Origin: an uncultured Oscillospiraceae bacterium
Lineage (GTDB): Bacteria > Bacillota > Clostridia > Peptostreptococcales > Anaerovoracaceae
Length of the DNA stretch: 29,313 nucleotides
Direction of reading: 5' to 3'
Assembly: GCA_964523955.1 (NCBI GenBank)
Contig: CAZGBL010000002.1
Span: 1-29,313, forward strand
Made by a program: the position numbers and the translations under genes. Under the pieces are notes generated by a model. The model made no database searches. It worked only from the letters and a program-made list of their open reading frames with translations, and was not told the DNA's origin. Positions 3,270 through 29,313 of the stretch are shown here, piece by piece. The stretch's first letter is position 1. Each line of letters begins with the position of its first letter.

Positions 3270-5366
3270 CTATTCTGCATCTCCTGCGTCTTCTGCTGGT
3301 TCTTCTGCAGCCACAGCTTCTGTTTCTGCTTCAGCTTCTGCTGCAGGAGCCTCAAGTGTCTCCTTGATGCTTAAACTGATTCTCTTCTTTTCTTCATCGA
3401 TATCGAGAATCTTAGCGGCTACTGTCTGACCGATACTGATTTCATCAGCGATGTTCGTAACTCTCTTGTGAGCAATTTCAGAGATATGTACGAGACCATC
3501 GAGACCCGGTTCGAGTTCTACAAATGCGCCGTACTCTTTAATCTGAACAACCTTACCTTCTACAACCTGACCTGCCTGATAATGCTCATTGATTACCGAC
3601 CAAGGTTCCGGCGTATTCTGCTTGAGACCAAGAGAAATTTTTCCCTTCTCTTCGTTCATGGAAAGGATCTTAACATTGATCTTCTCGCCGATTTTGAGAG
3701 CTTCCTGCGGATGCTTGAGCTTACCCCAGGAGATTTCAGAGATGTGAAGGAGACCGTCGATGCCGCCGATATCTACGAACGCGCCGTAGTCGGTGAATCT
3801 CATAACAGTACCCTCTACCGTATCGCCGACATTGATGGAAGACCAGATTTCTGCAATCTTCTTGCTCTTTTCCTCTGCGAGATACGCCTTGTGAGAGAAG
3901 ACTGCCTTATTTCTCCTCTGATCAACTCTCGTAACCTTTACAGTAAGAACCTTACCGATAAATTCATCTGCCTTCTCAACATATCTGTCGTTTAACTGAG
4001 ACATAGGAATAAAGCCGGTAACTTCCTTGTAAGCTGCGATTACGCCGCCTTTAACTTCTCTGATAACTTTAGCAGTAACAAACGATTTATCTTCATAAGC
4101 CTTGATGATTTCATTCCAGTGCTCGCTGATTTCAACCTTTTTACGAGATAATAAGATGTTGCCGTCGCCATCATCTGTCTTTAATACCTTAGCTTCAACG
4201 ACGTCGCCCAATTTAAAGAGAGATTCGATATCCTGATCTGCTTCAAGCGCAATCTCGTCTTTCGGAATGATGCCGTCCTTTTTGCAGCCTAAGTTTACAT
4301 AAACTTCACGCGGTCCTACCTGAATCACTTCGCCTTTTACGATTTCTCCACGCTGCGGCATCTTTAATGATTTTTCGATTTCTGCCATAAAGTCGTGCAT
4401 TTCGTTAGCTTCGTCGATGTTGTTAGTGATAACGTCACTCATGTTAGAAATAACCTCCTTAATTATTCGTTCGGGTGCCGATGCACCCGCCGATATTCCA
4501 ATTCTATTATATTTTTCAATATCTTTCAATGGTAAATGTAATCTATTTTCTATAAAATAAGTTTTCTCGCAGACTTCAGACGCGATTTCAAATAGCCTTC
4601 TGCTGTTGGAGCTGTCCTTTCCACCGATGACGATCATCAGATCGGACTGCTCCGCCACACGTCTGCAGGCATTCTGACGATTCGTGGTGGCACTGCAGAT
4701 CGTACATTTCAAAACAGCCTCCGGATATTCCTCTATCAGAGCCTCAGCGCAGGAATCCCACACTTTTCTATTGAGTGTCGTCTGAGCTACCGCGAAAATT
4801 CCTCTTCCTGATGTCCTGGCCTCTGTAAGCCGCTGCTGGTTCTCCGGAAGAGAGAGCTGCGTCGGATCGTTGATGACAATCGCTTGATTGTCACACCACC
4901 CGTCGATGCCGATCACTTCCGGATGGGATGCATCCCCCACTACAACGACCTCTTTCCCTTCTTTATACGCTTCATTTGCCAGACGATGTATTTTTTTTAC
5001 ATGCGGACAAGTAGCGTCTATCAACAGACCGCAGGACTGTCTGATCGCATCTTCCTCTTTCTGTCCCACACCGTGAGAACGGATGATAATCGCTGCATCC
5101 GGCTCTATACTGCCGATTTTTTCACAGATTTCCACGCCTCTGTTCTTCAAATCGTTTACCACATCGTCGTTATGAATGATAGGTCCATATGTATAGACCT
5201 TTTTTCCCGTATTCTTCAGTCTTTCTACCGTTTCCAGCGTTTTTTCAAGAGCTGTCATCACACCATAACAAAATCCGGAATATTCCGCTCTGGTAATCGT
5301 CTTGCCGTTTCGCTCAAATTCAATTTTATCCGCCATATGGTCTCTCTGATTACTCCTCTCGATCAT
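3270..5366 (-). CDS. ispH-rpsA: Bifunctional 4-hydroxy-3-methylbut-2-enyl diphosphate reductase / 30S ribosomal protein S1 fusion (IspH-RPS1)
   Basis: The IspH half has the three [4Fe-4S] cysteines (GFCYGV, DATCPHV, TICSAT) plus IIHN, RSHG, AQTT, SSNS and SAGASAP. Four S1 repeats follow (e.g. FTDYGAFVDIGGIDGLLHISEI, EYGAFVELEPGLDGLVHISEI), then an Ala/Glu tail. Start is 5366 (ATGA overlap with the rarA stop) or 5336. Confidence 0.96.
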   Translation of the reverse strand: MIERSNQRDHMADKIEFERNGKTITRAEYSGFCYGVMTALEKTLETVERLKNTGKKVYTYGPIIHNDDVVNDLKNRGVEICEKIGSIEPDAAIIIRSHGVGQKEEDAIRQSCGLLIDATCPHVKKIHRLANEAYKEGKEVVVVGDASHPEVIGIDGWCDNQAIVINDPTQLSLPENQQRLTEARTSGRGIFAVAQTTLNRKVWDSCAEALIEEYPEAVLKCTICSATTNRQNACRRVAEQSDLMIVIGGKDSSNSRRLFEIASEVCEKTYFIENRLHLPLKDIEKYNRIGISAGASAPERIIKEVISNMSDVITNNIDEANEMHDFMAEIEKSLKMPQRGEIVKGEVIQVGPREVYVNLGCKKDGIIPKDEIALEADQDIESLFKLGDVVEAKVLKTDDGDGNILLSRKKVEISEHWNEIIKAYEDKSFVTAKVIREVKGGVIAAYKEVTGFIPMSQLNDRYVEKADEFIGKVLTVKVTRVDQRRNKAVFSHKAYLAEEKSKKIAEIWSSINVGDTVEGTVMRFTDYGAFVDIGGIDGLLHISEISWGKLKHPQEALKIGEKINVKILSMNEEKGKISLGLKQNTPEPWSVINEHYQAGQVVEGKVVQIKEYGAFVELEPGLDGLVHISEIAHKRVTNIADEISIGQTVAAKILDIDEEKKRISLSIKETLEAPAAEAEAETEAVAAEEPAEDAGDAE

Positions 5367-15601: not shown

Positions 15602-16120
15602 CTACAGATCATTATACTTTATAGCAGAAAGTAATACCATAACTCCTGCCAAGATCAGATAAATTCCTGTAAACATGACGAGAACATCGACGCCCCAAAC
15701 AGGAACAATACACATCAGAACGCCGAACACTATATGTATTACTCCGAACAGAATATTCTTATTCTTATCGCTGCCCGCACGCGAATGCGCTCTCGCCACA
15801 TTAAAACGATCTATACCCGCCGCGAATGCTATCACTCCGATAAAAACGCCCACGACGCGAATCATCATTCTTGTATGCCCCATCAAATAAATGCCGCAGA
15901 TCATCAATAGAATCCCACACAGCAACTTCGGGACGGGCAGTTCTCCATATTTTCTCATCATAAGAGCGCCTGTCAGAAAATAACCGCCCGCCACAAATAC
16001 GACAACCCCCACTGAGAGACCGAAAAAAGCTATGACCTGATTTTTAAACGCATAACATACGATTCCCAAAGCGATCAGAACAAAACCTGATAAAACGCCA
16101 AACCGCCTGAAATAATCCAT
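15602..16120 (-). CDS. HdeD/DUF308-family integral membrane protein
   Basis: About six Gly-rich TM segments (SGFVLIALGIV, LCGILLMICGIYLM, ILFGVIHIVFGVLM, LVMFTGIYLILAGV). ATG 16120 is preferred because TTG 16141 lies upstream of the predicted transcription start. Confidence 0.75.
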   Translation of the reverse strand: MDYFRRFGVLSGFVLIALGIVCYAFKNQVIAFFGLSVGVVVFVAGGYFLTGALMMRKYGELPVPKLLCGILLMICGIYLMGHTRMMIRVVGVFIGVIAFAAGIDRFNVARAHSRAGSDKNKNILFGVIHIVFGVLMCIVPVWGVDVLVMFTGIYLILAGVMVLLSAIKYNDL

Positions 16121-16145
16121 AATCTTACACCTTCCTTTCAAAAGG

Positions 16146-16154
16146 AGTATAACA
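16146..16154 (-). promoter_or_regulatory. Putative extended -10 promoter for the HdeD-family gene
   Basis: Minus strand TGT-TATACT, about 25 nt upstream of ATG 16120. Confidence 0.45.
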
Positions 16155-16190
16155 CAGTTTAGCGATCTGTACCATCCGGGTCTTTTCCAT

Positions 16191-17069
16191 TCAGGAAAGT
16201 ATATTATCCATAAAATGAATAATCTTTTCCTTCACGCCAATCAGCCCTCCGATCCTTTGTGAAAAATATTCGCTTTCTGGATCATGTACTTCAAGTGACG
16301 ATTGTTCTGCTGCCGCAGCGTAAATCCCCTCTTTTGCTTTTTCTGAAGGCTCACATGTTTTCTCAGAAGAATTATGTTGGAGACGAATCAGATCTTCTGC
16401 CAGATTAATATATCCGCGAATCCCATATTCATTTCCGAGCACCTGATTCCTGTAATCTGCCAGAGTTCCTGTCGTTCCTCTCCCACTGCTGCGAAGAGCT
16501 GCTGCGTCATCGATAAAATTCGCTATCAGCATTTTAAGAGGTTTTGTCGTTCGATATCCCGGAAGATATAACAATTTGAGCGACTGATCTTCAGAAGATA
16601 CAAAAATACGGTCTATTCGAAAAGACACATATTCAGAAAAAATCAGATAATCCTCACAGGATCGAATTAAATTCAGAAGCCTTGCTGTCAATTCCAGTAT
16701 GACGACATCTGAAAGATCTCGATTTTTCAAATAGACACTGAGATTCTTATAGTCTGTCATCTTATAAAATACGTCAAGGTCTGATCCGTTCCTGACCGTA
16801 TACATTTCCACAAACGCCGGACATCTGTTGTTCAGAATCACATTGTTTTCGTAAGAACTCACAACAGCTTTCGCAAACCTCATATGAAGCCGGCGTTCCC
16901 CTCCCCTCTGCTGATAGAGGTTTTGCAATCCATAACCGTCTGCCGTATTGCTGCCGCAGACATATTCTGAAGAACGATTCTTGCAGGATTCTTCCGCTTT
17001 TTTCTCAAAATACCTGATGTCATTCACACTGTAACTCAAACGCTCTTTCCCCCTTTCTTCCGCATCCAT
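16191..17069 (-). CDS. DUF6382-like (kinase-fold-like) Tad-associated protein lacking the usual FHA domain
   Basis: Core NNVILNNRCPAFVEMYTVRNGSDLDVFYKMTDYKNLSVYL...LLNLIRSCEDYLI..EYVSFRIDRIFV...LKLLYLPGY resembles DUF6382, which ends clostridial tad operons. No TM or FHA at the C-terminus. Alternative start ATG 16883. Confidence 0.6.
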   Translation of the reverse strand: MDAEERGKERLSYSVNDIRYFEKKAEESCKNRSSEYVCGSNTADGYGLQNLYQQRGGERRLHMRFAKAVVSSYENNVILNNRCPAFVEMYTVRNGSDLDVFYKMTDYKNLSVYLKNRDLSDVVILELTARLLNLIRSCEDYLIFSEYVSFRIDRIFVSSEDQSLKLLYLPGYRTTKPLKMLIANFIDDAAALRSSGRGTTGTLADYRNQVLGNEYGIRGYINLAEDLIRLQHNSSEKTCEPSEKAKEGIYAAAAEQSSLEVHDPESEYFSQRIGGLIGVKEKIIHFMDNILS

Positions 17070-17090
17070 CTTCGCCGACCTTCCAATTCC

Positions 17091-17918
17091 TTATCCTCCG
17101 CATACACTGCACGCCGTAAAGTTTTTCGTCAAAGCATCCTCTCGATCCATTTCGATGACATATTTTTTTACTGAATGACAGTCAGCTCTGTGATAAGAAT
17201 TTCCATATTGAAAAATGTACACCGTTTCTCCATATTTCACATCCCCTTTGATACATAGAGGACAAGCGTCATATTTTTTGAACAAGTCCCCATCCGCTGT
17301 TACCTCAAATGCATAAGAACTGATATACCGGCAGCTTTTATTGTGGTATTTCTCTCCGGCATTCGGAAAAAGATACACAATATTTCCATCCTCATCCGCC
17401 AACATTTGCTCAAAAGGAAAGACGGCTCCGGAATGCGACTCCCCATTCCAGCTGCGAAAATAGAGACTGTTTTCGATGGAAATTTCGCGAATAAATGCTG
17501 CGGGAAGGTTGATTTTCATATGATAGGATACGTTCACTTTTGTTAAATCCGATATGCCGAAAAAACCTTTTTCAAAATCATAGGTATTAAGTCGTATATT
17601 TTGAGCTTCAATACCCCGCTCCTCTAATCCCGATCTGATGCTATAAAGAAAAATTTGCCTATTTCCTGCATCAATAAATAATTCCTTTATACGATCGGGA
17701 AGCAGATCTTCTCCTTTACCAAAAATGTAAGACTCCACGGACGCCTTTCGAGCTTCATCCGCCAAAGCTTCAAAGACGAATACTTGAAGATAAATAGCTT
17801 TGATCAATGAAGAAAGAGTCAAAATACTGATAATAAATATAGGAAGAAAAATTACTGTTTCTGTTATCATAGACCCTCTTTTTCCTCCATGATATTTCAT
17901 CATTCGCCTTCCAGACAT
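17091..17918 (-). CDS. TadE-like minor pilin with two C-terminal Cys/His metal-binding modules
   Basis: Class III signal KRG|SMITE (E+5) and a hydrophobic helix; C-terminal YHNKSC...ACPLC and YHRADC...ACSVC; RBS AAAGGAG. Confidence 0.8.
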   Translation of the reverse strand: MSGRRMMKYHGGKRGSMITETVIFLPIFIISILTLSSLIKAIYLQVFVFEALADEARKASVESYIFGKGEDLLPDRIKELFIDAGNRQIFLYSIRSGLEERGIEAQNIRLNTYDFEKGFFGISDLTKVNVSYHMKINLPAAFIREISIENSLYFRSWNGESHSGAVFPFEQMLADEDGNIVYLFPNAGEKYHNKSCRYISSYAFEVTADGDLFKKYDACPLCIKGDVKYGETVYIFQYGNSYHRADCHSVKKYVIEMDREDALTKNFTACSVCGG

Positions 17919-18043
17919 GATCCGTCTCCTTTCAAAAAACCTTCCGCACTTTTAGATTCCGATATTCCCCTCGTCTGCCGTATGGCAGATTCTTTCATTA
18001 AATGCGTTCTAACAGCATCGATTAACAGTATCAACAGAATCAA
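17900..18043 (-). pseudogene. Possible 47-codon ORF / prepilin-peptidase relic between two pilin genes
   Basis: TTG start overlaps the upstream stop (TTGA), and its TGA overlaps an in-frame ATG of the next gene (ATGA). Translation MILLILLIDAVRTHLMKESAIRQTRGISESKSAEGFLKGDGSCLEGE. Resemblance to an A24 N-terminus is weak. Confidence 0.2.
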
Positions 18044-19551
18044 TAAGTATGTATCATCCGTACACGCGTTCTGCCCGATCCGATCCCTGCATAAATGCTT
18101 TTTTTCTGCAGTTCCGCTTTCAGTGAAAAACCGCAGAAGAGATTACTCAATACAAAATCCTGCCGATCTGTCCCTTTCAGGTTAATCTGGATGAGATCCA
18201 TAATGCGCAGAAGCTTTGTCTCTGACTTTTCTGTCAGCAAAAGAAGGCGAAGATAAGAGGCATAACTGAGACCCGACGACGAATTATTTTCTATCATCGC
18301 CCCATCGATCACACCTGATATCACCTCCGAGAGATCCATCTTCCAGCTCTGTTCTGACTTTATCAGTGCAATCTTATTTCCCGCCTCTAAATTCTTCAGA
18401 TCGTTCGATGCTTCCAGAGCGCTCCATGCTGTAATAATCAACAGCTGCGTCAATGGAACAAAAGGCCCTGGCGTCAGGCTCTCCGCGAAAGCCAATGTCT
18501 GTTCCAGCTTTTCAGGATTGCTGTAGAGATAAGCGGCATTCAGCGCTGTACGAATCGTATAAACAGCCCTTCTCGCTTTTTTATAATTTTCCTTATCCGA
18601 AAAACTGCCGTATAAGATATATTCCACCTCATTTGAGAAAAAGCATTCCTGCTTTTTTTCATCTATATGATTGTAAAAGAAACTCAAAATATACTCATTG
18701 GAATATATCTCCGATTTTAAAGTTTCCAGATCGGTAAGCTGCGGAAGCTTCTCAAGAGAGGATAATATTCCCGAAAAGGCGGTATTCTCCTTGTATCCTG
18801 CCAGTACAGAAGGAAGGACGTCCTTAATTTTTCCATTCCTCAATACAGCTTCCGATTCCTCTTCTGTTCTACCCGCCCCTCCATTCTCCGATTTTTCATC
18901 TAAACTGTTTTTTAAGTTTTTCAGCATGCCATGAACATGATCCGCAGTGTCAAAATCAATGGATGTTTCGCTTTGTTCATCCTCCGGCGTTTCTTCTGAC
19001 CGCCGTCTTTTTTCCTCTTCTTTTGCATTTTCCAGTTCTTCTTTTCTCTTCTCCTTATCAGATAAAAGGAGAATCGCCTCTTTTACAGACTGAAATTGTG
19101 ACATGCCATCGGAAATTCTGTCGGATATGATCTTATACTTCATAATTTCATTGATCTGATTCTGAAATACCTCGGTATCGCTCAAACAATATCCGGATTT
19201 TTCGATACTTATTTCCATCAATCTGCATTCCGTCAGAGGAAATGCCTCTAACGTTTCTTCTGATAAATCTGCAATCATTTCCGCAATCTCTCCTTCATCA
19301 TATTCATATCCAAACAGAGCATATCGATCCTTTAACGCTCTGTCGTATCCGGCCAGAATGCTGCGGCCGGCCGTCTCAAAAGTACATTCAGCCACTGAGA
19401 CTGCGGCACGTCGAGATGCTGCTTCCCCTATAGAGCCCACAGCCATGAGAACGGAAACAAATATACAGGTCAGCATAACGGCGATTGAACCGCATTTCTT
19501 CTTCCGAGCCTTTCTTATTCTCTCAATCAGATTCATTTCCAATTTTTTCAA
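18040..19551 (-). CDS. TadG-like large minor pilin (DUF5702 family)
   Basis: Basic leader KKKCG|SIAVMLTCIFVSVL; motifs DRYALFGY, NEVEYILYG, IRTALNAAYLYSN, WSALEASNDL, GLSYASYLRLLL..LLRIMDLIQINL typical of clostridial tad loci; charged coiled-coil middle. Exact start uncertain. Confidence 0.8.
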   Translation of the reverse strand: MKKLEMNLIERIRKARKKKCGSIAVMLTCIFVSVLMAVGSIGEAASRRAAVSVAECTFETAGRSILAGYDRALKDRYALFGYEYDEGEIAEMIADLSEETLEAFPLTECRLMEISIEKSGYCLSDTEVFQNQINEIMKYKIISDRISDGMSQFQSVKEAILLLSDKEKRKEELENAKEEEKRRRSEETPEDEQSETSIDFDTADHVHGMLKNLKNSLDEKSENGGAGRTEEESEAVLRNGKIKDVLPSVLAGYKENTAFSGILSSLEKLPQLTDLETLKSEIYSNEYILSFFYNHIDEKKQECFFSNEVEYILYGSFSDKENYKKARRAVYTIRTALNAAYLYSNPEKLEQTLAFAESLTPGPFVPLTQLLIITAWSALEASNDLKNLEAGNKIALIKSEQSWKMDLSEVISGVIDGAMIENNSSSGLSYASYLRLLLLTEKSETKLLRIMDLIQINLKGTDRQDFVLSNLFCGFSLKAELQKKSIYAGIGSGRTRVRMIHTY

Positions 19552-19969
19552 ACACTAAATCTGCAGTACGGATAATATCATCCTCATCCAGAGACGTCCA
19601 GACAGCTTTGCTTCTGCTCTGTGCGCGGACAGGAATCAGCGATGTAAAAGTCTTCTTTCTCTGTACTTGAGCGCTATAACTGGGTATCAAATCTCCTGAT
19701 TTCACAACTTCACTTTTTTGTACAAAATCATCATTCCATCCGGAAAGCACCGCAATTTCACCCGTACGCGAACCTAATATCACAGTCTCTGACGCTTCCT
19801 CTGCCGCTGTTCTCACATTGTAATCGATCTGTGACATATCCTGCACACTATTGAAGAAAAATATCATCAGCAAGAGAAACATCGCTGTTATAATAACGAT
19901 GACCGGATAGATCAATGCCGCTTCTACAATATAGCTTCCCCTTTTCCTGCGGAGCTTTTGTTTCAGCAT
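19523..19969 (-). CDS. TadE-like minor pilin
   Basis: RRKRG|SYIVEAALIYPVIV (E+5), single TM; ATG 19969 overlaps the flp stop (TGATG). Confidence 0.82.
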   Translation of the reverse strand: MLKQKLRRKRGSYIVEAALIYPVIVIITAMFLLLMIFFFNSVQDMSQIDYNVRTAAEEASETVILGSRTGEIAVLSGWNDDFVQKSEVVKSGDLIPSYSAQVQRKKTFTSLIPVRAQSRSKAVWTSLDEDDIIRTADLVFEKIGNESD

Positions 19970-20139
19970 CAATTGAAACTGCTTCCCAGCAGCGTGCTGA
20001 AAGTAGTATTGACAAACAGTCCGATCTGTTCTTTAAAAATGAGTCCAATTCCTACTGCAATCGCAATAAGAATCCCCACCTGTACTAATTCCATTCCTTT
20101 TTTGGATCGAATCGTAATATCAATTAACGCTTTTTTCAT
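19969..20139 (-). CDS. flp: Flp-family (type IVc) major pilin; not in the ORF track (56 aa)
   Basis: Read manually: MKKALIDITIRSKKG|MELVQVGILIAIAVGIGLIFKEQIGLFVNTTFSTLLGSSFN*; strong RBS AGGAGG 9 nt upstream; canonical position between tadC and tadE. Confidence 0.9.
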   Translation of the reverse strand: MKKALIDITIRSKKGMELVQVGILIAIAVGIGLIFKEQIGLFVNTTFSTLLGSSFN

Positions 20140-20199
20140 AAATGTCTTCCTCCTACTATATTTTATTCATCAACAAAACTCACCGCTGCACTTACACAT

Positions 20200-21576
20200 C
20201 TACATTTGCATCATCGCTGGAGCCACTGTCACTAAAACCAAGGAAACTAACATTAATATCATCGGCAATGTTAACTTCGTATCGATCAGCCGTATCTTTT
20301 CCTGCATTAATGTTCTTTCTCTGTCGCGGAGAAGGCAGCTTTCCACTTCTAATTTTTCCGCCAAAGAAGTCCCTTTTCCGATGTTGTCTTCCATCACAGC
20401 GCTGAAACGCATGATTTCATTTATTCCTGTCCTTGACGCAAACTCCCGCCACTCTTTTATGACAGATGCATTCGTCTCTTTCACCCTTTTTCCGATCTCT
20501 GCCGCTTCATATGCCAGCGTATTCTTCTTGTCATATTCAATGGCTGCACTGCAATCCTCCGCCATCTTTTCCATCGCTGTCAGAACAGTCAGACCGCTGT
20601 TTAAAAGCAAAACAAGCTTATCTATAAAAGGCGGAAAATTTCTGACAATGCCTTGCCGATATCGTCTGATTTCCTGCTCTGCGAAAAAATAACGCCGAAA
20701 AAAGATGACGGCCACGGAAATTGCCCCGCAGAACAAAACCCAGATGATACCATCTGCACTGTATTTCATCCATTTAAGTTTGATATCATCTCCAATGTGG
20801 TCTGGCAGAACAACGTTACCGTCCTGTCTCCCCATAGAAATCTCATCTATGAGAATTTGTATCTTCCGAGATACGGAAGCCTGATATAAAGAAGGATCAT
20901 CCCTAAGCACCACGTCAAATGCAACTTCTTTTTCACAGCCTTCGTAGTTAAGACTCGCCGTCAGCCTCACCGATTCCTCTTCGCCTGCGAGAGCCAGCAC
21001 ATCATAATACCCCTCCTTTGAAATCAAAACGGGATCTGATGATTCCCATAATATTGAAATACCGCTCTCATCATCTTCTGTCGGGAGATAAAAATCCTCT
21101 GTTACGATACGTACATCCCCGAACTTCGGAGCTACGAGATCCGGCAGTTTCTGAGCAAAATCATTCAAAATTTTGTTTTTCTGTTCATCATCTAACGCTT
21201 CTTCCTGAATGATAATATTAGCAGTTCCTTCTATTGTAGTTTCGCCTCTGACTGCTTCCACAATCACCGGAATCGTCTTTTGCCCTGCTCCATGCTCCGG
21301 CCGGCCGATCTGTATGATTTCCGTTTCAGACATCGAAGACGTCAGAAATACGATTGCTGACACCGCAATAACGCCTGACAAGATAGCTGCATAAAACAGT
21401 AAGTTTTTTCTCTGATAGGATTGTACTGCAGCAGAGAGCTTCTCTCCCTCATATTTTACAGAGAGTTTTCGTTCCAAAACCTCCGACTCTCCCCGCAGCT
21501 TTTCCGGAAGTCGTTTTTCCGCAAACCTCCATGAACGCATAATACCTCTGTAAAAAATACCTCTCTTTTTCTCCAT
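20200..21576 (-). CDS. tadC: TadC-like (T2SS F family) pilus platform protein with an extracellular Ig-like insertion
   Basis: C-terminal T2SSF domain (FPPFIDKLVLLLNSGLTV, IMRFSAVMEDNIGKGTSLAEKL, IDTKLTLPMILMLVSLVLVTVAP). A loop of about 190 aa between TM helices contains LPTEDDESGISILWESSDPVLISKEG..VRLTASL (bacterial Ig-like pattern). Confidence 0.82.
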   Translation of the reverse strand: MEKKRGIFYRGIMRSWRFAEKRLPEKLRGESEVLERKLSVKYEGEKLSAAVQSYQRKNLLFYAAILSGVIAVSAIVFLTSSMSETEIIQIGRPEHGAGQKTIPVIVEAVRGETTIEGTANIIIQEEALDDEQKNKILNDFAQKLPDLVAPKFGDVRIVTEDFYLPTEDDESGISILWESSDPVLISKEGYYDVLALAGEEESVRLTASLNYEGCEKEVAFDVVLRDDPSLYQASVSRKIQILIDEISMGRQDGNVVLPDHIGDDIKLKWMKYSADGIIWVLFCGAISVAVIFFRRYFFAEQEIRRYRQGIVRNFPPFIDKLVLLLNSGLTVLTAMEKMAEDCSAAIEYDKKNTLAYEAAEIGKRVKETNASVIKEWREFASRTGINEIMRFSAVMEDNIGKGTSLAEKLEVESCLLRDRERTLMQEKIRLIDTKLTLPMILMLVSLVLVTVAPAMMQM

Positions 21577-21578
21577 TT

Positions 21579-22421
21579 TTAATCCAATGAAATCAGCCGA
21601 AAACTCCAGAGGAAAGAGCCCACTGTCGCTGCCAGTGATACCGCCATAATCAGTCTTCCTTCTGCCGTCATATACATCATCGAAAGATAATCCGAAGACG
21701 ACATATTGATGAATAACACGACAACGGGAGGCATCAAAGCCAGCAAGCGGCTTTCCAATCGTTTTTGAGAAAGCAATGCATGTTTCTCTCTGGCAAGTTC
21801 AATATTCTGTGTTATGATATTGCTCGCCTTTGCGATCAATGCATTGATATCACCTCCCGTTTTTCGGCAGGTCATACAAACATCTACAAATTCAACGATC
21901 TCATCGATATGAGAACGATATGCAAGATCTTTCATCAACGGCTCTGCACTGCAATTTGTTTCACGAATGACACTGTTCATCCGAAATAACTCTCTGGCCA
22001 TATAACAGTCCCTCCCATATAATAAAGTGATAGGCTCGTAGGCGTCTTCCAACGCTTCTTCCAGATTTCTCCCTGTATTGACTGAAGAGGATATGGAATA
22101 GAGAAAATCCCGAAATTGCATTCTCAGATCATACTTCTGCCTGTTGACTTTCATTTTCTTATATATAGGAAGAACAAAAATCGAAAGAGGAATCGCTGCT
22201 GCGCTGACTGCCAAGCTGTGAAAATAGAGATATCCGCACACACCGAACAAAAGTCCACTCAGCAATAGAATATTTACTTTCTCATCTCTGCCCATAGAGT
22301 AAACATCATAATCCGTTCCTGTCCCTCTTGCATTCTGCTCTTCCGATCTTCGGGCGCCGATAAATTTATCCATACCGCCGTTCGTTTTTTCTTCGTTTTT
22401 TACCATCCACTCATTCCCCAA
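21579..22421 (-). CDS. tadB: TadB-like (T2SS F family) pilus platform protein
   Basis: QFRDFLYSISSSVNTGRNLEEAL, FVDVCMTCRKTGGDIN, QKRLESRLLALMP, MYMTAEGRLIM. Start codon uncertain (22421 or 22406). Confidence 0.88.
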   Translation of the reverse strand: MGNEWMVKNEEKTNGGMDKFIGARRSEEQNARGTGTDYDVYSMGRDEKVNILLLSGLLFGVCGYLYFHSLAVSAAAIPLSIFVLPIYKKMKVNRQKYDLRMQFRDFLYSISSSVNTGRNLEEALEDAYEPITLLYGRDCYMARELFRMNSVIRETNCSAEPLMKDLAYRSHIDEIVEFVDVCMTCRKTGGDINALIAKASNIITQNIELAREKHALLSQKRLESRLLALMPPVVVLFINMSSSDYLSMMYMTAEGRLIMAVSLAATVGSFLWSFRLISLD

Positions 22422-23640
22422 TATTCAACCCCATCATTTCAAGCTTTTCTCTGTTTTGTATGGCGTTTCCCGTAGGCTTAAGCATCCCCTTAGTGCCCGC
22501 CTCTGTTTGAAATCGGAAAATACAGTTGAGGATCGGTTCTCCCTGCTTAAAACCGAGAAATTCCGTAATTTCCATGATCTTTCTTGTCCTATCCTTCAGT
22601 CTGGACAGATGTATCACCACATCGATTCCAGATGCGATCTGGCCTCTGACCGCATCCACGGGATATTGAACCGCAGATAAACACATGGTTTCCAGTCGGC
22701 CAAACACCGCCTGCGCCGAATTTGCGTGAATCGTACTCATTCCCCCGTCATGTCCCGTATTGAGCGCACTGATCATATCTGCCGCTTCACCGCCTCGAAC
22801 CTCTCCGACGATGATCCGATCCGGTCTCATACGAAGACTTGCACGAATCAGATCCTGCATTGTTACAACGCCTCTCCCCTGTGAATTCGCATTTTTCGTT
22901 TCTAGCCGAACGATATTCTCTATTCCTCGAATCTGAAGCTCCGCTGAATCTTCGATGACGATAATGCGCTCATCTTTTGGGATGTAATCGGTCAAAGCGC
23001 CGAGCAAAGACGACTTTCCTGAACTCGTTCCTCCGGAGATGAGCAGATTATATCCGGCTTGTACCAGAACTCTTAACATATTCGCGGCTTCCTCTGTCAC
23101 CGATCCAAATCGAATGAAATCCTCCATCGTAATACGCTTCTTCGGAAATCTCCTTATAGTGAGAACTGGTCCTGTCAGCGAAATATTTTTATACACCGCA
23201 TGAACTCTCGATCCATCACTGAGCCTGGCATCCAAAATCGGATGCATTTCATTAATCTCCCTGTGAACCTTACCTGCAATTCTCATGATTACCTCTTCCA
23301 GATCTTCATCGGAAGAAAATGCCTCGTCAATCCTCACCAATTCGCCTGCACGCTCCACAAAAATATCATCTTTGCCGTTGACCATAATTTCATTGATGCG
23401 ATCATCTTCCATATAAGGCTGCAGAAGATCCAAATCCTTACGCATGGCATTAAATACGCCATTTACCAGCGCAATCTTCTCTTTGTAATTCATATCCGCC
23501 GCGTGTTCGCTTTGAAAGATATAAGCTTCGATCAGTTCTCTCATATCCTGATCCGTTTCTGGGCTTCGTTCACTGATGGATAATCTCACCTCATCCGATA
23601 TTCTTCGTATCAGCTCCGCTCTGCTATTCCCATCAAGCAA
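22411..23640 (-). CDS. cpaF: Tad pilus assembly ATPase CpaF/TadA
   Basis: [21 protein letters not shown], Walker [48 protein letters not shown]. Confidence 0.95.
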
Positions 23641-24796
23641 CAGAAATCACTTCCTTTAATATGCCATCAACCGATGCCGCAAAAGCGCCTGTCATACTGA
23701 TCTGTCTGCATCCATCAGCAAAATAAAAACTATGTGGATCATAAGGCAAATGCAGCAGGTTTCCATCCGCCCGATTTTCTTGAATACCTCCATCTCCGTC
23801 AAAAAAATAGAGTTCATCCTGCCCATATCCCTCCATATTGATCACCACTTTTATAATATCGGCATCAGCTTCACCGGAAGTATTTTTCAATATGTACTCC
23901 TTCCATTCTTCCGCCAGTTCGCCGCCATCTCTATCCGCTGAAGACAGGACGAACATCAAATCCGATTTTTCTGCAATCAACCCCGTAATTTCATCATTTG
24001 AATTATCCAGATCCAAGATGATCACATCAAAAATCTCGGAAAAACACAAGCTGTCGATAAAGCGTTCCATTTCTGTTACACTCAATAAGGAGAGCTCATT
24101 GATGCCGCCTGGCATATTAAAAGTGAATACTCCAAATTTATCTTTGACAAGATAAGAATCCAGCGACGTTTCCGGATGATCCCCTGCAAATAAATGGTAG
24201 ATATACTCATTTACTGTTTTATACTTTTTCCCAGACTGCATCGAAAAATATCTCCTCAGGTCATAGAGCATGGAAACGCTTACAACCAGGGCTGACCGAT
24301 TCTTTTTTTGCCGAATCATTCGAGCAATCGTCAAAGATAATGACGTTTTTCCTGCTCCACCGCAGCAACTCGTTATAGAAATAACGAAGAATGGACTCTT
24401 CTCTGATAAGAGATTTCTGCCCAATTGATGCTCCGACAGAAAAAAATTTATATGCATAACAATTTTCGATGCACTGGTATACTTAAAAATCGGCTCTGAC
24501 GCAGGCAGTTTTTCTTTTAATTGTAATATATCCTCCTCTCTCTCACATAAAAATACAGATTTTGATGCGACAGCCATTACGCATTCCTGAAAGATAAGAT
24601 TCAAATCAGCACTTCCGAAAATATAGAGATCATATCGTGCCTCAGGCATACTATCCCGCGTATGAAAATCATTCTTCCAGCTTTCAAAGTCCTCAGATGA
24701 CATGGTCACATTTCGGCAGGAACACATCATATATTGTGAAAACATCTCTCTGAACCAGTCGTCATCATCGATCAAGCACACGCTAACTCTTCTCAA
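23633..24796 (-). CDS. CpaE/TadZ-like ParA/MinD-family pilus localisation ATPase with receiver-like N-domain
   Basis: N-terminal VSVCLIDDD, IFKYTSAS; deviant Walker A SCCGGAGKTS; DVIILDL; VVINM; first gene of the tad operon, TTG start with RBS GAGGTG. Confidence 0.78.
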   Translation of the reverse strand: MRRVSVCLIDDDDWFREMFSQYMMCSCRNVTMSSEDFESWKNDFHTRDSMPEARYDLYIFGSADLNLIFQECVMAVASKSVFLCEREEDILQLKEKLPASEPIFKYTSASKIVMHINFFLSEHQLGRNLLSEKSPFFVISITSCCGGAGKTSLSLTIARMIRQKKNRSALVVSVSMLYDLRRYFSMQSGKKYKTVNEYIYHLFAGDHPETSLDSYLVKDKFGVFTFNMPGGINELSLLSVTEMERFIDSLCFSEIFDVIILDLDNSNDEITGLIAEKSDLMFVLSSADRDGGELAEEWKEYILKNTSGEADADIIKVVINMEGYGQDELYFFDGDGGIQENRADGNLLHLPYDPHSFYFADGCRQISMTGAFAASVDGILKEVISVA

Positions 24797-25292: not shown

Positions 25293-28064
25293 TTGGCTAA
25301 AGAACTTATTATCAATTCCGTCGAATCTTTCGAAGAAGCTTTACCAATCATTCGTGCTTCTCAGGACGAATTCGCTACATTTACTCAGGAACAGGTAGAT
25401 ACTATCTGCGAAAAGGCTGCTATGGCAGTTTCCAAGATGAGAATTCCTCTCGCAAAGATGGCGAACGAAGAAACTGGGTATGGTATCGTAGTTGATAAGA
25501 TCACTAAGAACCAGTATGCTTCTGAACACATCTGGAACTACATGCGTACTGCTAAGACTTGCGGTATCATTGAAGAAAATCCTGCAGCTGGCACTAAGCG
25601 TGTAGCATCTCCTAAGGGTGTTATCGCTGCGATCGTTCCTACTACTAACCCGACTTCTACTACTATCTATAAGATCTTATTGGCATTAAAGACAAGAAAT
25701 GCTATCATCGTTTCTCCTCATCCAAATGCAGTTAACTGCACAATCGAAGCTGCAAGAATCATGAGAAACGCTGCTATCGAAGCTGGTCTTCCTGAAAACG
25801 TCATCAACTGGGTATCCGTACCTTCCCTCGACATCTCCGACGTAATGATGAAGAAGGTTGACCTCATCATGGCTACTGGCGGTGAAGCGATGGTACACGC
25901 TGCTTACTCCTCCGGTACTCCGGCTATCGGCGTAGGTCCTGGTAACTGTAACGTAGTTATTGATGAAACTGCTGACTTAAGAATGGCAGTAGAATCCATC
26001 ATCCACTCCAAGACTTTCGATAACGGTATGATCTGTGCGACAGAGCAGCACATCACTGTATTAAACAGCGTTTATAAGGAAGTTAAGGCTCTCATGAAGG
26101 ACGCTCGCTGCTACTTCCTGAGCAAGGACGAAGCTGAAAAGGTTGCTGAAGTATTCTTCAATCCTAAGACTCACGGCGTTAAGGCTGCGGCTGTAGGTCA
26201 GACTGCAGTTCACCTCGCTGAAATGGCTGGTATCGACGTTCCTGCTGAAACTAAGGTACTCGTTTACGAGACAGATGATACTTCCCACGACAATCCATGG
26301 GCAAATGAAAAGCTGACTACACTCCTCGGTATGTTCAAGGCTAACACTCTTGACGAAGCATTCGACATCTGTGCCAAGCTCGTACTCGAAGGCGGTGCCG
26401 GTCATACTGCAGCTCTGTACGTTGATCCTGTTGAAGAAGACAAGATCGATGCATTCGCTGAAAAGATGAAGGCAGGACGTATCCTCATTAATACTCCTTC
26501 CTGCTTCGGCGGTCTCGGTGACCTCTACAACTTCGACATGGCTCCGTCCCTCACACTCGGACCTGGTTCTGTCGGCGGTTCTTCCTTCATGGGTCAGACA
26601 CACTACGAGCAGTTACTCGACATAAAGATCGTTGCAATGAGAAAAGAAAACATGCTCTGGTTGCAGCTGCCTAAGAAGTTATATCACAAGACTGGCTGCA
26701 CCAGCGTAGCTCTGAAGGAAATGAAGGATGTTTATAACTTCAAGAGAGCATTCATCATTACAGACGCTAACCTCTATCAGATCGGTGCTTGCGATGCTAT
26801 CATCAACCAGTTAAGAGATATGGGTATCGAAACTGCAGAATTCTTCGACATCAGAGTTGACCCTCAGATTCAGGATGCTATGAAGGGTCTCCCTAAGATG
26901 CACGAATTCGAACCGGACGTAATCATCGCAGTTGGCGGTGGTTCTGCTATCGATACAGCTAAGATCATGTGGATCATGTACGAAAACCCTGAAGAAGCGT
27001 TCCTCGACATGGCTACAATCTTCCTCGATATCAGAAAGAGAATCAGATTCTTCCCTCAGATGGGTACAAAGGCTAAGTTAGTCTGCATCCCTACTACTGC
27101 AGGTACTGGTTCCGAATGTACTCCATTCACAATCATTTCCGATGCTAACACTGGCATGAAGTGGCCGATCATCGGTTACGAAATGATGCCTGAAATGGCT
27201 ATCGTAGACGCTGACAACATGATGAAGCTCCCTCCTAAAGCTACTCAGGCTTCCGGCTACGACGTACTCACTCATGCAGTTGAAGCATATGTTTCCACAT
27301 TTGCTACTGAATATACTGACGGATTCGCTAAGTCTGCAGTTGAAATGGTATTCAAGTATCTCCCTGATGCGTATAAATCCGCATTCAAGGATGCTAAGCC
27401 GAATCCTGTAGCACGTGAAAAGATGGCAGATGCTTCTGCTCTCGCAGGTGTTGCATTCGCTAACGCATTCCTCGGTATCAACCACTCCCTGTCTCATAAG
27501 CTCGGCGGTTGGTTCCACGTTCCTCACGGTACTGCAAACGCTCTGCTCTGCCCTTACGTTTGTAGGTTCAACGCTCAGAAGCACCCTTACCACATGGGTA
27601 CATTCTCTCAGTACAAGTATCCTCAGGCATTCGAAAGATACGTTGAACTGGGCGAGTTAATCGGAGTTAAGGGTAAGAACGACGAAGAAACATTCAAGAA
27701 TTGGATCAAGGCTCTCGAACAGCTCAAGGTTGATATCGATATCCCTGAAACAATTTGCGACTGGCTGGTTGAAAATCACCCAGAAAAGACTGCTGAAGAA
27801 CACGAAGCAGACTTCCTCGCTGCAGTAGATCAGATGTCTGAATGGGCATTCCACGATGCATGCACAGGCGCTAACCCTGTATATCCTTTGATCTCTGAAC
27901 TCAAGCAGATTTACCTCAGAGCATTCTACGGCGATGCTAAGTTCATCGAAAAATATGGTGATGTTCTTTCCGTCGAAGTTAATAATCCTACTGATACTCA
28001 CGCTGCATATCCTCTCGGTCTTGTTGCTGAAATCGGTGAAGATAAGGTTGGCGGCTTCAAATAA
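25293..28064 (+). CDS. adhE: Bifunctional acetaldehyde-CoA/alcohol dehydrogenase AdhE
   Basis: 923 aa, TTG start with RBS AAGGAGG. ALDH domain (PTTNPTST, ATGGEAMV..AYSSGTPAIGVGPGN, DNGMICATEQ catalytic Cys). Fe-ADH domain with GGGSAID, TTAGTGSE and Fe ligands GYDVLTHAVEAY and GINHSLSHKLGGWFHVPHG. Strong high-expression-type codon bias. Confidence 0.97.
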   Translation: MAKELIINSVESFEEALPIIRASQDEFATFTQEQVDTICEKAAMAVSKMRIPLAKMANEETGYGIVVDKITKNQYASEHIWNYMRTAKTCGIIEENPAAGTKRVASPKGVIAAIVPTTNPTSTTIYKILLALKTRNAIIVSPHPNAVNCTIEAARIMRNAAIEAGLPENVINWVSVPSLDISDVMMKKVDLIMATGGEAMVHAAYSSGTPAIGVGPGNCNVVIDETADLRMAVESIIHSKTFDNGMICATEQHITVLNSVYKEVKALMKDARCYFLSKDEAEKVAEVFFNPKTHGVKAAAVGQTAVHLAEMAGIDVPAETKVLVYETDDTSHDNPWANEKLTTLLGMFKANTLDEAFDICAKLVLEGGAGHTAALYVDPVEEDKIDAFAEKMKAGRILINTPSCFGGLGDLYNFDMAPSLTLGPGSVGGSSFMGQTHYEQLLDIKIVAMRKENMLWLQLPKKLYHKTGCTSVALKEMKDVYNFKRAFIITDANLYQIGACDAIINQLRDMGIETAEFFDIRVDPQIQDAMKGLPKMHEFEPDVIIAVGGGSAIDTAKIMWIMYENPEEAFLDMATIFLDIRKRIRFFPQMGTKAKLVCIPTTAGTGSECTPFTIISDANTGMKWPIIGYEMMPEMAIVDADNMMKLPPKATQASGYDVLTHAVEAYVSTFATEYTDGFAKSAVEMVFKYLPDAYKSAFKDAKPNPVAREKMADASALAGVAFANAFLGINHSLSHKLGGWFHVPHGTANALLCPYVCRFNAQKHPYHMGTFSQYKYPQAFERYVELGELIGVKGKNDEETFKNWIKALEQLKVDIDIPETICDWLVENHPEKTAEEHEADFLAAVDQMSEWAFHDACTGANPVYPLISELKQIYLRAFYGDAKFIEKYGDVLSVEVNNPTDTHAAYPLGLVAEIGEDKVGGFK

Positions 28065-28123
28065 GTCTTACCCTTTGATAAGTCTTACATAGAAAGTCAG
28101 TCACTCAGATATGATTCAGTGAG

Positions 28124-28158
28124 TGAAGCTGGTGCCGGTTCGTCCGGTATCAGCTTCA
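28124..28158 (+). other. Intercistronic RNA stem-loop without a U-tract (adhE / ADH-like gene)
   Basis: TGAAGCTGGTGCCGG-TTCGT-CCGGTATCAGCTTCA: 15-bp stem whose two DNA mismatches are both G.U pairs on the + strand. Confidence 0.7.
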
Positions 28159-28192
28159 TATCATATAGTTCATAGAATAAGGAGAAATATAT

Positions 28193-29179
28193 ATGAACAT
28201 GCTCAATCTTCCTAAAAAAGTATATTTCAAAAAGGGTTCTATGTGCGTTGCATTTAAGGAAATCGATGAAATATACCACGCAAAAAGAGCATTCATAATC
28301 TCTGACGCAAACCTGTACAGACTCGGTGCGGTTGCTCCTGTCACTGATTTTATCAGAGGCAGAGGAATCATGACTGCTGAATTCTTCACTATCGATGCGG
28401 AACCTACATTTGAAAATGTACACAGCGGTCTTCCTAAAATGCTCGAGTATCAGCCTGATTTCATCATCGGTGTCGGCGGCGGCTCTGTAATGAACGTTGC
28501 AAAGGCTATGTGGCTTCTTTATGAAAATCCTGATCTGGATCTCAACGAGGCTTCAAAGAATTTTGGAACACTCGAAGCAGACAGAGCTTCCTTCCCTACC
28601 GTTGGAAACAAGGCAAAGCTTGCTCTTTTAGCGACTACTGCTGCTACAGGTGCGGAATGCTCTCCATTCATCGTTCTCAAGAATGATGCTGGTGAAAAAT
28701 GTGTAATCGCAAGCTATAATCTCTTACCTGAAATCGCATGCGTAGATTCTGATTATTCTGAATCCATGTCTGCAGATCTCACAAAGAAGAGCGGTCTTAC
28801 CGCCCTCACTCAGGCAGTAAGAGCTTACGTTGCTGAATATGCAAGTGAATATACTGAAGGTATTGCAAGAGAAGCTGTCGGTATCGTCTTCGAGTATCTT
28901 GAAGAAGCGGTAGAAAAAGGCGCTATGGCTCCAGTGGCATACGAAAGGCTTTCCTATGCTGCTGTTCTCGCTGGTATCGCACTTTCCAATGCCGCAGCTA
29001 CCATCGATCCAAATGCGGTATTCTACCCTACGGAAGATGAAAAATCTGCTGCTAAGATCGGTGCTGATGCTCTCGCCAGAATCGTAGATCTTGCAAAGCA
29101 CGTAGGTATAAAAGCAACAAGCGATGAAAAGATTTTCGAAGCTTGGATTGCTGCTTGTGAAAAGCTGAACGCGTTATAA
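28193..29179 (+). CDS. Iron-containing alcohol dehydrogenase-like protein derived from the AdhE ADH domain; all metal ligands lost (probable pseudoenzyme)
   Basis: 328 aa, RBS AAGGAG. Colinear with the ADH half of the adjacent AdhE (LPKKVYFKKG vs LPKKLYHKTG; KRAFIISDANLY vs KRAFIITDANLY; VGGGS kept). GYDVLTHAVEAY has become GLTALTQAVRAY, and the GINHSLSH...VPHG segment is absent. Confidence 0.85.
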   Translation: MNMLNLPKKVYFKKGSMCVAFKEIDEIYHAKRAFIISDANLYRLGAVAPVTDFIRGRGIMTAEFFTIDAEPTFENVHSGLPKMLEYQPDFIIGVGGGSVMNVAKAMWLLYENPDLDLNEASKNFGTLEADRASFPTVGNKAKLALLATTAATGAECSPFIVLKNDAGEKCVIASYNLLPEIACVDSDYSESMSADLTKKSGLTALTQAVRAYVAEYASEYTEGIAREAVGIVFEYLEEAVEKGAMAPVAYERLSYAAVLAGIALSNAAATIDPNAVFYPTEDEKSAAKIGADALARIVDLAKHVGIKATSDEKIFEAWIAACEKLNAL

Positions 29180-29258
29180 TTGATATTCAAAAAGAAACAT
29201 TAAAACTTCATTGTATTTATAGAAGTAAACAATGCTTCTTCCATTTTTCCAAATACAT

Positions 29259-29296
29259 AAAATGGGTCGTCACGTTTCATTGTGGCGGCTCATTTT
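29259..29296 (+). terminator. Probable terminator hairpin after the adhE operon
   Basis: AAAATGGGTCGTCAC-GTTTCATT-GTGGCGGCTCATTTT: 15-bp stem with three G.U pairs; only a short U-run. Confidence 0.5.
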
Positions 29297-29313
29297 GCAT
29301 ATTCCCGTTTTGC

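What the first reader, a model, noticed from the sequence alone, without database searches (positions are those of the whole stretch)
28193..29179. AdhE paired with a metal-less copy of its own ADH domain: candidate spirosome cap or NAD(H)-sensing pseudoenzyme
Seen: the 328-aa protein aligns end to end with the ADH half of the adjacent AdhE, starting exactly at the domain boundary. The nucleotide-binding side is kept (ISD acidic residue, GVGGGS, ATT). All four Fe ligands are gone: Asp to Thr and His to Gln in GLTALTQAVRAY, and the segment carrying both remaining His (GINHSLSH...VPHG, 55 aa) is replaced by an unrelated 27 aa, after which alignment resumes (ARIVDLAKHVGIKATSDEKIFEAWIAACEKL vs ERYVELGELIGVKGKNDEETFKNWIKALEQL). 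The C-terminal helices are dropped. The frame is intact, has a strong RBS and shows the same high-expression-type codon choices (GCT, ACT, GGT, ATC, GAA) as adhE, unlike a decaying pseudogene. Known: AdhE polymerises into spirosomes through ADH-ADH and ALDH-ADH contacts, and filament state controls activity. Inference: a dedicated non-catalytic subunit that could heterodimerise with AdhE's ADH domain to cap or size filaments, gate aldehyde release, or sense NADH/NAD+. I know of no described system of this kind.
Basis: partly seen in the sequence, partly recalled or inferred. Interest (0 to 1): 0.8.

Follow-up and report, generated by a model that had tools for sequence, protein, structure and literature searches.

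The report
Dead ADH-domain partner gene of AdhE
Directly after the fermentation gene adhE lies a conserved, selected copy of its alcohol-dehydrogenase half that has lost its metal site but kept the surface AdhE uses to polymerise, so it is probably a non-catalytic partner of AdhE; binding is not shown.

Summary
ORF 28193-29179 (328 aa) matches residues 454-811 of the adjacent AdhE (39% identity, E 7e-81). It lacks all four Fe ligands, the two His-bearing helices and the last ~110 residues.

It is not a decaying copy. About 80 clusters of 296-338 aa relatives exist, and none has the ligands. dN/dS is 0.06-0.2. The AlphaFold model is confident (pLDDT 95). Codon bias is in the 99th percentile of the genome.

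The gene always follows adhE on the same strand. It accompanies a distinct AdhE clade of ~923 aa with a conserved ~40-aa C-terminal tail: 46 of 47 loci reached through the short gene, and 9 of 9 tail-bearing AdhEs in an Oscillibacter genus sample searched with AdhE. None of 39 canonical AdhEs and none of 3 tail-less ones has it. The two genes co-diverge.

The residues of the spirosome ADH-ADH contact (E. coli F670 knob; I460/F462 pocket) are kept in all members. NAD-binding motifs are degenerate in distant members.

Best reading: a pseudoenzyme that binds AdhE's ADH domain and limits or caps polymerisation. Binding is inferred, not shown. I found no published description. This scan reported the same kind of gene before, in another genome (e1-5246527).

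The parts
25293..28064 (+). adhE of the '923-aa type': intact ALDH and ADH domains, all four Fe ligands present, TTG start behind an AAAGGAGG site
   Evidence: NCBIfam PRK13805 1150 bits against a cutoff of 951; Pfam Aldedh + Fe-ADH + ADH_Fe_C; upstream sequence
27939..28061 (+). Clade-specific C-terminal tail of AdhE (~40 aa, '...DTHAAYPxG..IGxDKVGGF'), absent from canonical AdhE
   Evidence: The NCBIfam profile ends at residue 882. The tail is conserved across the clade and missing in canonical AdhEs. AF2 pLDDT is 47-66 for the isolated ADH+tail.
28119..28164 (+). Intercistronic stem-loop of about 20 bp with no U-tract, between adhE and the short gene
   Evidence: RNA fold of 28062-28200: -44 kcal/mol, z -5.6. 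Stems of 12 bp or more occur in most of the 44 related spacers.
28179..28184 (+). Shine-Dalgarno AAGGAG of the short gene
   Evidence: Sequence. AAGGAG or GGAGG is found at the same place in most related loci.
28193..29179 (+). Metal-less, C-terminally reduced ADH-domain paralogue (328 aa), a putative AdhE partner pseudoenzyme
29258..29297 (.). 17-bp hairpin flanked by an A-tract and a U-tract: terminator-like end of the two-gene unit, before a convergent HemN-like gene
   Evidence: Fold z -3.7; a convergent radical-SAM ORF lies downstream

Best explanation
The 328-aa protein is a pseudoenzyme derived from the ADH domain of AdhE.

Shown:
- It has no metal site. The Asp and first His ligands are replaced, and the two helices carrying the other His ligands are deleted. 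The last ~110 residues are also missing.
- The N-terminal Rossmann-like domain and five C-terminal helices are kept and predicted as a compact fold.
- The gene is under purifying selection. It lies directly downstream of adhE and is inherited together with it.
- It accompanies one AdhE clade that carries a conserved C-terminal tail.

Inferred:
- It keeps the canonical Fe-ADH dimer surface: knob Tyr220 (E. coli F670) and pocket Val10/Tyr11/Phe12 (I460/Y461/F462). This is the surface through which AdhE dimers polymerise into spirosomes. It has no ALDH domain to continue the chain.
- It therefore most likely binds the free ADH face of an AdhE dimer. This would end or limit polymerisation, or give a defined AdhE-partner hetero-oligomer, and so tune AdhE activity.
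- The conserved, apparently flexible AdhE tail may be a second docking element. This last point is speculative.
For: 1. Ligand loss holds across the family. In 79 relatives of 296-338 aa, the Asp position is never Asp, the first His position is almost never His, and the His-His segment is deleted in all.
2. Selection: dN/dS is 0.06-0.2 for pairs with dS below 1, against 0.02-0.12 for adhE.
3. Fold: AF2 pLDDT 95, pTM 0.92. The best structural matches are AdhE ADH domains (6scg TMq 0.89; 8uhw 0.90).
4. Linkage: 46 of 47 loci with an AdhE at least 70% identical to the window's have the short gene 18-204 bp downstream on the same strand. The 47th has a frameshifted adhE in the assembly. None of 39 canonical AdhEs has it.
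5. Linkage in samples chosen by kinship: all 7 genomes of the window's genus. In an Oscillibacter genus sample searched with AdhE, 9 of 9 tail-bearing AdhEs have it and 0 of 3 tail-less ones do.
6. Co-divergence: the short family is one clade (SH-aLRT 96-100) inside AdhE ADH domains, and its branching mirrors that of the partner AdhE.
7. Interface: F670 inserted into the I460/F462/I712 pocket is required for spirosomes (PMC6778083). The C. thermocellum equivalent is Tyr (PMC12204686). In 86 short proteins the knob is Tyr 78 / Phe 8. The pocket is V/I/L in 83 of 83, Tyr in 83 of 83 and Phe in 81 of 83.
8. Expression hints: codon bias in the 99th percentile. In RNA libraries, one 1729-nt contig spans the adhE 3' end, the spacer and the whole short ORF at the same depth as adhE (27 against 27.5). 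A second library has a 685-nt bridging contig.
9. The partner AdhE clade differs from canonical AdhE at two contact positions: F462 is His in 23 of 37, and the S705 position is Asp in 35 of 37. The short protein keeps the canonical Phe and Asn there.
Against: - No binding, expression at protein level or effect on filaments is shown.
- The knob and pocket residues are also general features of AdhE ADH domains. They could serve homodimerisation of the short protein rather than binding to AdhE.
- The protein evolves about 10 times faster than the AdhE ADH domain, and its I712-equivalent pocket residue is variable.
- Strong codon bias suggests an abundant protein, which fits a stoichiometric partner better than a rare end-cap.
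- A test for co-evolution at interface positions had too few independent changes to say anything.
- One diverged subclade (P0087, L159) follows a canonical, tail-less AdhE, so the tail is not needed for the pairing.
- DNA carry-over in the RNA libraries is not excluded.
- It is unknown whether this AdhE clade forms spirosomes at all.
Confidence: 0.5

Rival explanations
1. It is an NAD(H)-binding redox sensor. The retained Rossmann-like domain binds NADH or NAD+ without turnover and passes the redox state to AdhE or to another target.
For: In the window's protein D38, GGGS and T148/T149 are intact. G95 is invariant, and G96, T148 and G153 are at least 90% conserved. AdhE conformation responds to cofactors.
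Against: Across 86 members D38 is Asp in only 68. The third Gly is kept in 62 and the Ser in 47. Several members read GVGDSK, GGRA or GGPN. Half of the cofactor cleft, the His-bearing helices, is deleted.
Confidence: 0.15
2. It is an assembly or stabilising subunit that docks on the clade-specific C-terminal tail of AdhE, or on another AdhE surface, rather than on the polymerisation face. It would act as a scaffold, chaperone or localisation factor.
For: The short gene and the conserved ~40-aa AdhE tail co-occur in all loci of the main clade. The tail is conserved in sequence but has low confidence (pLDDT 47-66) in the isolated ADH+tail model, as expected for a partner-binding peptide.
Against: The P0087 subclade pairs with a tail-less AdhE. 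No contact could be computed with the tools available.
Confidence: 0.15
3. It is still an enzyme. It would have a metal-independent or differently liganded activity on an aldehyde, an alcohol or a related substrate produced by AdhE.
For: It is under purifying selection and looks highly expressed. An Arg conserved in 67 of 86 members replaces the Glu after the first His ligand, on the same helix face as the former ligand positions.
Against: The former ligand positions are variable rather than replaced by one new residue: A, T, K, N, Q, S, Y at the Asp position. Two active-site helices and the C-terminal helices are missing. NAD motifs are degenerate in many members.
Confidence: 0.1
4. It is a functionless remnant of a tandem adhE duplication.
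For: Some loci have adhE-short-adhE2 in tandem. The short gene evolves much faster than adhE.
Against: Frames are intact in more than 100 diverged members down to about 35% identity. dN/dS is 0.06-0.2. Synteny is conserved across families. The Shine-Dalgarno site is strong, codon bias is high and the fold is confident.
Confidence: 0.03

Closest known systems
ADH domain of bifunctional AdhE (group III Fe-dependent ADH; E. coli 6scg/6ahc/6tqh, C. thermocellum 8uhw)
   Same: It is the direct evolutionary source. It has the same fold (TMq 0.89-0.90) and 39% identity to the neighbouring AdhE. It shares the N-terminal boundary, the knob and pocket residues of the ADH-ADH contact, and the start of AdhE-specific loop 2 (YENPxxDL).
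   Different: It has no ALDH domain or linker, no Fe ligands and no His-bearing helices. The last ~110 residues are missing. It scores 243 bits against the NCBIfam AdhE cutoff of 951. It evolves about 10 times faster.
ErcA, the alcohol-dehydrogenase-like regulatory protein of Pseudomonas (NCBIfam NF041833)
   Same: It is a member of the Fe-ADH superfamily annotated as regulatory rather than catalytic.
   Different: P0001 scores 117 bits against a cutoff of 550. The ErcA profile is full-length (382 positions). Its link to ethanol-oxidation regulators rather than adhE is from my own knowledge and was not tested here.
Stand-alone Fe-ADHs (FucO 1rrm, Z. mobilis ADH2 3owo, B. methanolicus Mdh 8zwd)
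   Same: They share the superfamily fold (TMq 0.8-0.84) and are described as dimers through the same surface.
   Different: They are catalytic, with a complete C-terminal domain and the D/H/H/H site. Identity is 22-25%. They are not linked to adhE.
Pseudoenzyme paralogues that regulate their active relatives, and filament end-capping proteins such as actin capping protein (analogy only)
   Same: The proposed logic is the same: an inactive copy keeps one assembly interface and so limits or regulates the polymer of the active protein.
   Different: There is no homology. No such factor is described for spirosomes in the papers searched.

Membership tests
Fe-dependent (group III) alcohol dehydrogenase, Pfam PF00465 + PF25137 | N-terminal Rossmann-like NAD-binding domain with the GGGS turn | tested here: met
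   PF00465 115 bits (cutoff 31.3), profile positions 1-167 of 168. GVGGGS is at residues 93-98.
Fe-dependent (group III) alcohol dehydrogenase, Pfam PF00465 + PF25137 | Metal site of Asp, His, His, His | tested here: not met
   Thr203 and Gln207 stand at the first two ligand positions. The segment carrying the other two His is deleted. The same holds in all 79 relatives.
Fe-dependent (group III) alcohol dehydrogenase, Pfam PF00465 + PF25137 | Complete C-terminal helical domain | tested here: not met
   ADH_Fe_C matches only profile positions 3-74 of 194. The model has 5 C-terminal helices.
Bifunctional AdhE (NCBIfam NF010378) | ALDH domain fused to the ADH domain, and score above the family cutoff | tested here: not met
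   There is no ALDH domain. It scores 242.7 bits against a cutoff of 951 and matches only profile positions 456-723.
ErcA-type ADH-like regulator (NF041833) | Score above the family cutoff | tested here: not met
   116.9 bits against a cutoff of 550.
Pseudoenzyme (operational definition) | Catalytic residues lost, while fold and sequence stay under purifying selection | tested here: met
   Ligands lost across the family. dN/dS 0.06-0.2. pLDDT 95.
Pseudoenzyme (operational definition) | Absence of catalytic activity | not testable with these tools
   This needs enzyme assays and metal analysis.
Spirosome-interacting or capping subunit (proposed, not an established family) | ADH-ADH contact residues retained (F670 knob; I460/F462 pocket) | tested here: met
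   Tyr or Phe at the knob in 86 of 86. V/I/L in 83 of 83 and Phe in 81 of 83 at the pocket. Residue mapping.
Spirosome-interacting or capping subunit (proposed, not an established family) | Physical binding to AdhE and an effect on filament length | not testable with these tools
   No multimer prediction or experiment is available here.

The most novel reading that the evidence does not exclude
A clade of gut-anaerobe AdhEs works as an obligate two-protein system. A dead copy of the ADH domain occupies the polymerisation face of AdhE, possibly helped by AdhE's conserved C-terminal tail. This would turn an open-ended enzyme filament into a capped, length-limited or non-filamentous assembly. It would be the first dedicated protein regulator of spirosome assembly.
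Probability: 0.35. Interest if true: 0.8.

Novelty: new variant of a known kind. Interest (0 to 1): 0.62.

Why it matters
AdhE spirosomes are a well-studied case of an enzyme whose filament state controls activity and the channelling of toxic acetaldehyde. How cells set filament length is an open question. Only cofactors, point mutations and small molecules are reported to affect it in the papers I read.

A naturally evolved, co-inherited, catalytically dead ADH domain that keeps the polymerisation surface offers a concrete, testable candidate for protein-level control. It occurs in cultured strains: Oscillibacter valericigenes Sjm18-20, Eubacterium pyruvativorans i6 and Eubacterium sp. F2. 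It could also serve as a tool to cap or shorten spirosomes in engineered ethanol producers.

It also corrects an annotation. These genes are named 'iron-containing alcohol dehydrogenase' in public records, although they cannot bind the metal in the canonical way.

Tried and rejected
1. Co-evolution between AdhE and short-protein interface positions (669/219 E-D; 462 against 262). There were only 1 to 3 independent changes, so no test is possible.
2. A class-wide even sample of 399 genomes and a sample of 201 Oscillospiraceae, both searched with AdhE. The 923-type clade is too rare to sample this way: 0 and 2 genomes. The linkage test was therefore done at genus level.
3. The first locus scan with a 36-sequence alignment failed because no stretch was conserved enough. 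It succeeded with 12 sequences.
4. Rex-box search upstream of adhE: nothing above chance.
5. The simple terminator scan found nothing between or after the genes. Folding shows an intercistronic hairpin without a U-tract and a terminator-like hairpin after the short gene.
6. Literature searches for a spirosome cap or an ADH pseudoenzyme: no relevant paper. Two searches were swamped by unrelated hits.
7. Whether the short family is sister to the 923-type ADH domains specifically: SH-aLRT 93 in one tree, unresolved in a broader one. Only 'derived from an AdhE ADH domain' is claimed.
8. Pseudogene reading: rejected on dN/dS and conservation.

Full report
**Observation**

The ORF at 28193-29179 (+) is intact, 328 aa, with an ATG start. 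AAGGAG lies 8 nt upstream. It aligns to residues 454-811 of the AdhE encoded 128 bp upstream (25293-28064) with 39% identity, E 7e-81.

Pfam finds a complete Fe-ADH N-domain but only the first 74 of 194 positions of the C-terminal domain. NCBIfam's AdhE model matches at 243 bits against a cutoff of 951.

The two N-terminal metal ligands are Thr203 and Gln207. The segment with both remaining His is replaced by a shorter unrelated stretch. The last ~110 residues of AdhE have no counterpart. The neighbouring AdhE keeps all four ligands.

**A real family**

A word-indexed search found about 80 clusters (at 90% identity) of 296-338 aa proteins, 40-92% identical to the query. An exhaustive HMMER search found the same set as roughly 20-30 clusters at 50% identity.

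In an alignment of 79 such proteins none has Asp at the first ligand position, and all carry the deletion. His at the second ligand position is rare: 1 of these 79, and 3 of the 86 members of the wider alignment. The Asp position is variable (A, T, K, N, Q, S, Y), as expected for a site freed from constraint. The Glu that follows the first His ligand is Arg in 67 of 86.

Names given by sources are only 'iron-containing alcohol dehydrogenase' or 'acetaldehyde dehydrogenase/alcohol dehydrogenase'.

**Selection and fold**

Nei-Gojobori dN/dS for pairs with dS below 1 is 0.06-0.2 for the short gene. It is 0.02-0.12 for the adjacent adhE.

An AlphaFold2 model built on 86 sequences has mean pLDDT 95 and pTM 0.92. 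It shows the Rossmann-like domain plus five helices. The best structural matches are AdhE ADH domains: E. coli 6scg at TMq 0.89 and C. thermocellum 8uhw at 0.90.

**Linkage to adhE**

- In three diverged members (47%, 53% and 39% identity) with otherwise unrelated flanks, the gene lies directly downstream of adhE.
- Among loci fetched from species genomes, 46 of 47 AdhEs that are at least 70% identical to the window's are followed within 18-204 bp by a short homologue on the same strand. The 47th has a frameshifted adhE in the assembly, with the short gene present. None of 39 canonical AdhEs (about 50-55% identity, 860-900 aa) has one. These loci were reached through the short gene, so I also used samples chosen by kinship.
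- All seven other genomes of the window's genus have the short gene. It lies beside adhE in six of them and on a separate contig in the seventh.
- In 61 genomes of the Oscillibacter genus searched with AdhE, all 9 tail-bearing AdhEs have the short gene downstream. The 3 tail-less AdhEs of 68-70% identity do not.
- The clade is rare. No such AdhE turned up in the 399 other genomes scored in an even sample of the class, and only 2 of 201 Oscillospiraceae had one.
- Carriers include Oscillibacter valericigenes Sjm18-20, Dysosmobacter, Eubacterium pyruvativorans i6, Eubacterium sp. F2, [Eubacterium] saphenum and Anaerovoracaceae MAGs.
- The window's genome also has a second, tail-less AdhE (893 aa, 65% identity) on another contig, without a short neighbour.

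**The partner AdhE is a distinct clade**

It has a 10-aa insertion and a conserved ~40-aa C-terminal tail ('...DTHAAYPxG..IGxDKVGGF') that canonical AdhEs lack. In a model of the ADH domain plus tail, the tail is mostly coil with pLDDT 47-66. That is compatible with a peptide that becomes ordered only on a partner. This is inference only.

One diverged subclade of short proteins (P0087 and relatives) follows a canonical, tail-less 913-aa AdhE. The tail is therefore not required for the pairing.

**Evolution**

The short proteins form one clade (SH-aLRT 96-100) nested among AdhE ADH domains, not among stand-alone Fe-ADHs. The stem branch is long, and the internal branching mirrors that of the partner AdhE.

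Terminal and internal branches are about ten times longer than those of the partner ADH domain. Whether the family is sister specifically to the 923-type clade is not robust: 93 in one tree, unresolved in the other. Long-branch artefacts cannot be excluded.

**Which surfaces are kept**

In E. coli, F670 of one ADH domain inserts into a pocket formed by I460, F462 and I712 of the next. F670 mutants lose spirosomes and activity (PMC6778083). The contact is the canonical Fe-ADH dimer interface (bioRxiv 10.1101/2019.12.19.882415). In C. thermocellum the knob is Tyr, and this position together with S705 influences filament length (PMC12204686).

Mapping through the PDB alignment gives Val10 = I460, Phe12 = F462, Tyr220 = F670 and Ile262 = I712. 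Conservation in 86 short proteins:

| E. coli position | Role | Residues in the short family |
|---|---|---|
| F670 | knob | Tyr 78, Phe 8 |
| I460 | pocket | V/I/L in 83 of 83 |
| Y461 | pocket | Tyr in 83 of 83 |
| F462 | pocket | Phe 81, Tyr 2 |
| G673 | next to knob | Gly in 83 of 86 |
| I712 | pocket | variable |

NAD-binding elements are weaker: Asp38 in 68 of 86, and G-G-G-S kept in 86, 78, 62 and 47 members.

The AdhE-specific loops at the ALDH-ADH channel are only partly kept. The start of loop 2 (YENPxxDL) is nearly invariant, but many members delete 12 residues of it. Loop 3 lies in the replaced segment.

The partner AdhE clade has His instead of Phe at position 462 in 23 of 37 sequences. 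It has Asp at the S705 position in 35 of 37. Canonical AdhEs and the short proteins have Phe and Asn there. This hints at a remodelled interface. A co-evolution test had too few independent events.

**Expression**

The unit is bicistronic. It is flanked by a divergent Tad-like pilus locus and a convergent HemN-like gene.

The 128-bp spacer holds a ~20-bp stem-loop without a U-tract (z -5.6). Comparable stems followed by a strong Shine-Dalgarno site occur in most related loci. A terminator-like hairpin follows the short gene.

Codon usage of the short gene is in the 99th percentile of the genome for adhE-like bias. Its dS is higher than that of adhE, which fits strong but lower expression.

In one RNA library a 1729-nt contig (about 93% identical) spans the adhE 3' end, the spacer and the entire short ORF, at the same depth as the adhE contig. 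A second library has a 685-nt bridging contig. DNA carry-over is not excluded.

**Interpretation**

Shown: a conserved, selected, well-folded, metal-less derivative of AdhE's ADH domain, co-inherited and probably co-transcribed with a special AdhE clade.

Inferred: it uses the retained dimer surface to bind AdhE's ADH domain. Lacking an ALDH domain, it would then terminate or limit polymerisation, or form a defined hetero-oligomer.

The NAD-sensor, tail-docking scaffold and residual-enzyme readings remain possible. The remnant reading is rejected.

**Prior knowledge**

No paper in the library combines spirosomes with a capping or accessory protein in this sense. A survey of ALDH-ADH fusions does not mention it under the terms I searched.

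This scan had already reported the same kind of gene in another genome, with the same reading (e1-5246527). That is not independent evidence. I re-derived each point here on this window.

Noticed in passing
window 27939-28061 (AdhE residues ~883-923) and ~27640-27670: The AdhE next to the finding belongs to a distinct clade. It has a conserved ~40-aa C-terminal tail ('...DTHAAYPxG..IGxDKVGGF') and a 10-aa insertion, both absent from canonical AdhE. The tail is predicted with low confidence in isolation.
   Followed up: partly
window 28119-28164; spacers of L026-L094: A stable intercistronic stem-loop (12-23 bp, no U-tract) followed by a strong Shine-Dalgarno site recurs between adhE and the short gene in most loci. 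It may set the adhE:partner ratio.
   Followed up: partly
P0075 (304 aa, metagenomic): Its first ~100 residues are about 92% identical to the N-terminus of the 923-type AdhE ADH domain, and the rest is a typical short-family sequence. This is either gene conversion between adhE and its partner or a chimeric assembly.
   Followed up: partly
L030, L058, L061, L071, L073: Some Oscillospiraceae loci carry adhE(923-type)-short-adhE2, where adhE2 is a second, canonical AdhE of about 45% identity, in tandem on one strand.
   Followed up: no
L159 (P0087), P0121, P0132, P0149: A diverged subclade of short, ligand-less proteins follows a canonical, tail-less 913-aa AdhE. The pairing is therefore older or more general than the tail-bearing clade.
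   Followed up: partly
L037, L055, L069, L075: Near-identical adhE-short cassettes sit in MAGs labelled Succinivibrio, Alloprevotella, Acidaminococcus and Acidaminococcales. This points to mis-binning or horizontal transfer of the cassette.
   Followed up: no
G000 contig C128:3485-6073: The window's genome has a second AdhE (893 aa, 65-66% identical, no tail) with no short gene in the ~1 kb available downstream.
   Followed up: partly
window 15602-24796 (- strand): A Tad/type-IV-pilus-like locus (T2SSE ATPase, T2SSF, DUF5702). It includes a 387-aa ORF (23633-24796) with no Pfam match, directly upstream of adhE and divergent from it.
   Followed up: no
window 3270-5366 (-): An IspH (LytB) domain fused to four S1 RNA-binding domains in one 698-aa ORF.
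   Followed up: no
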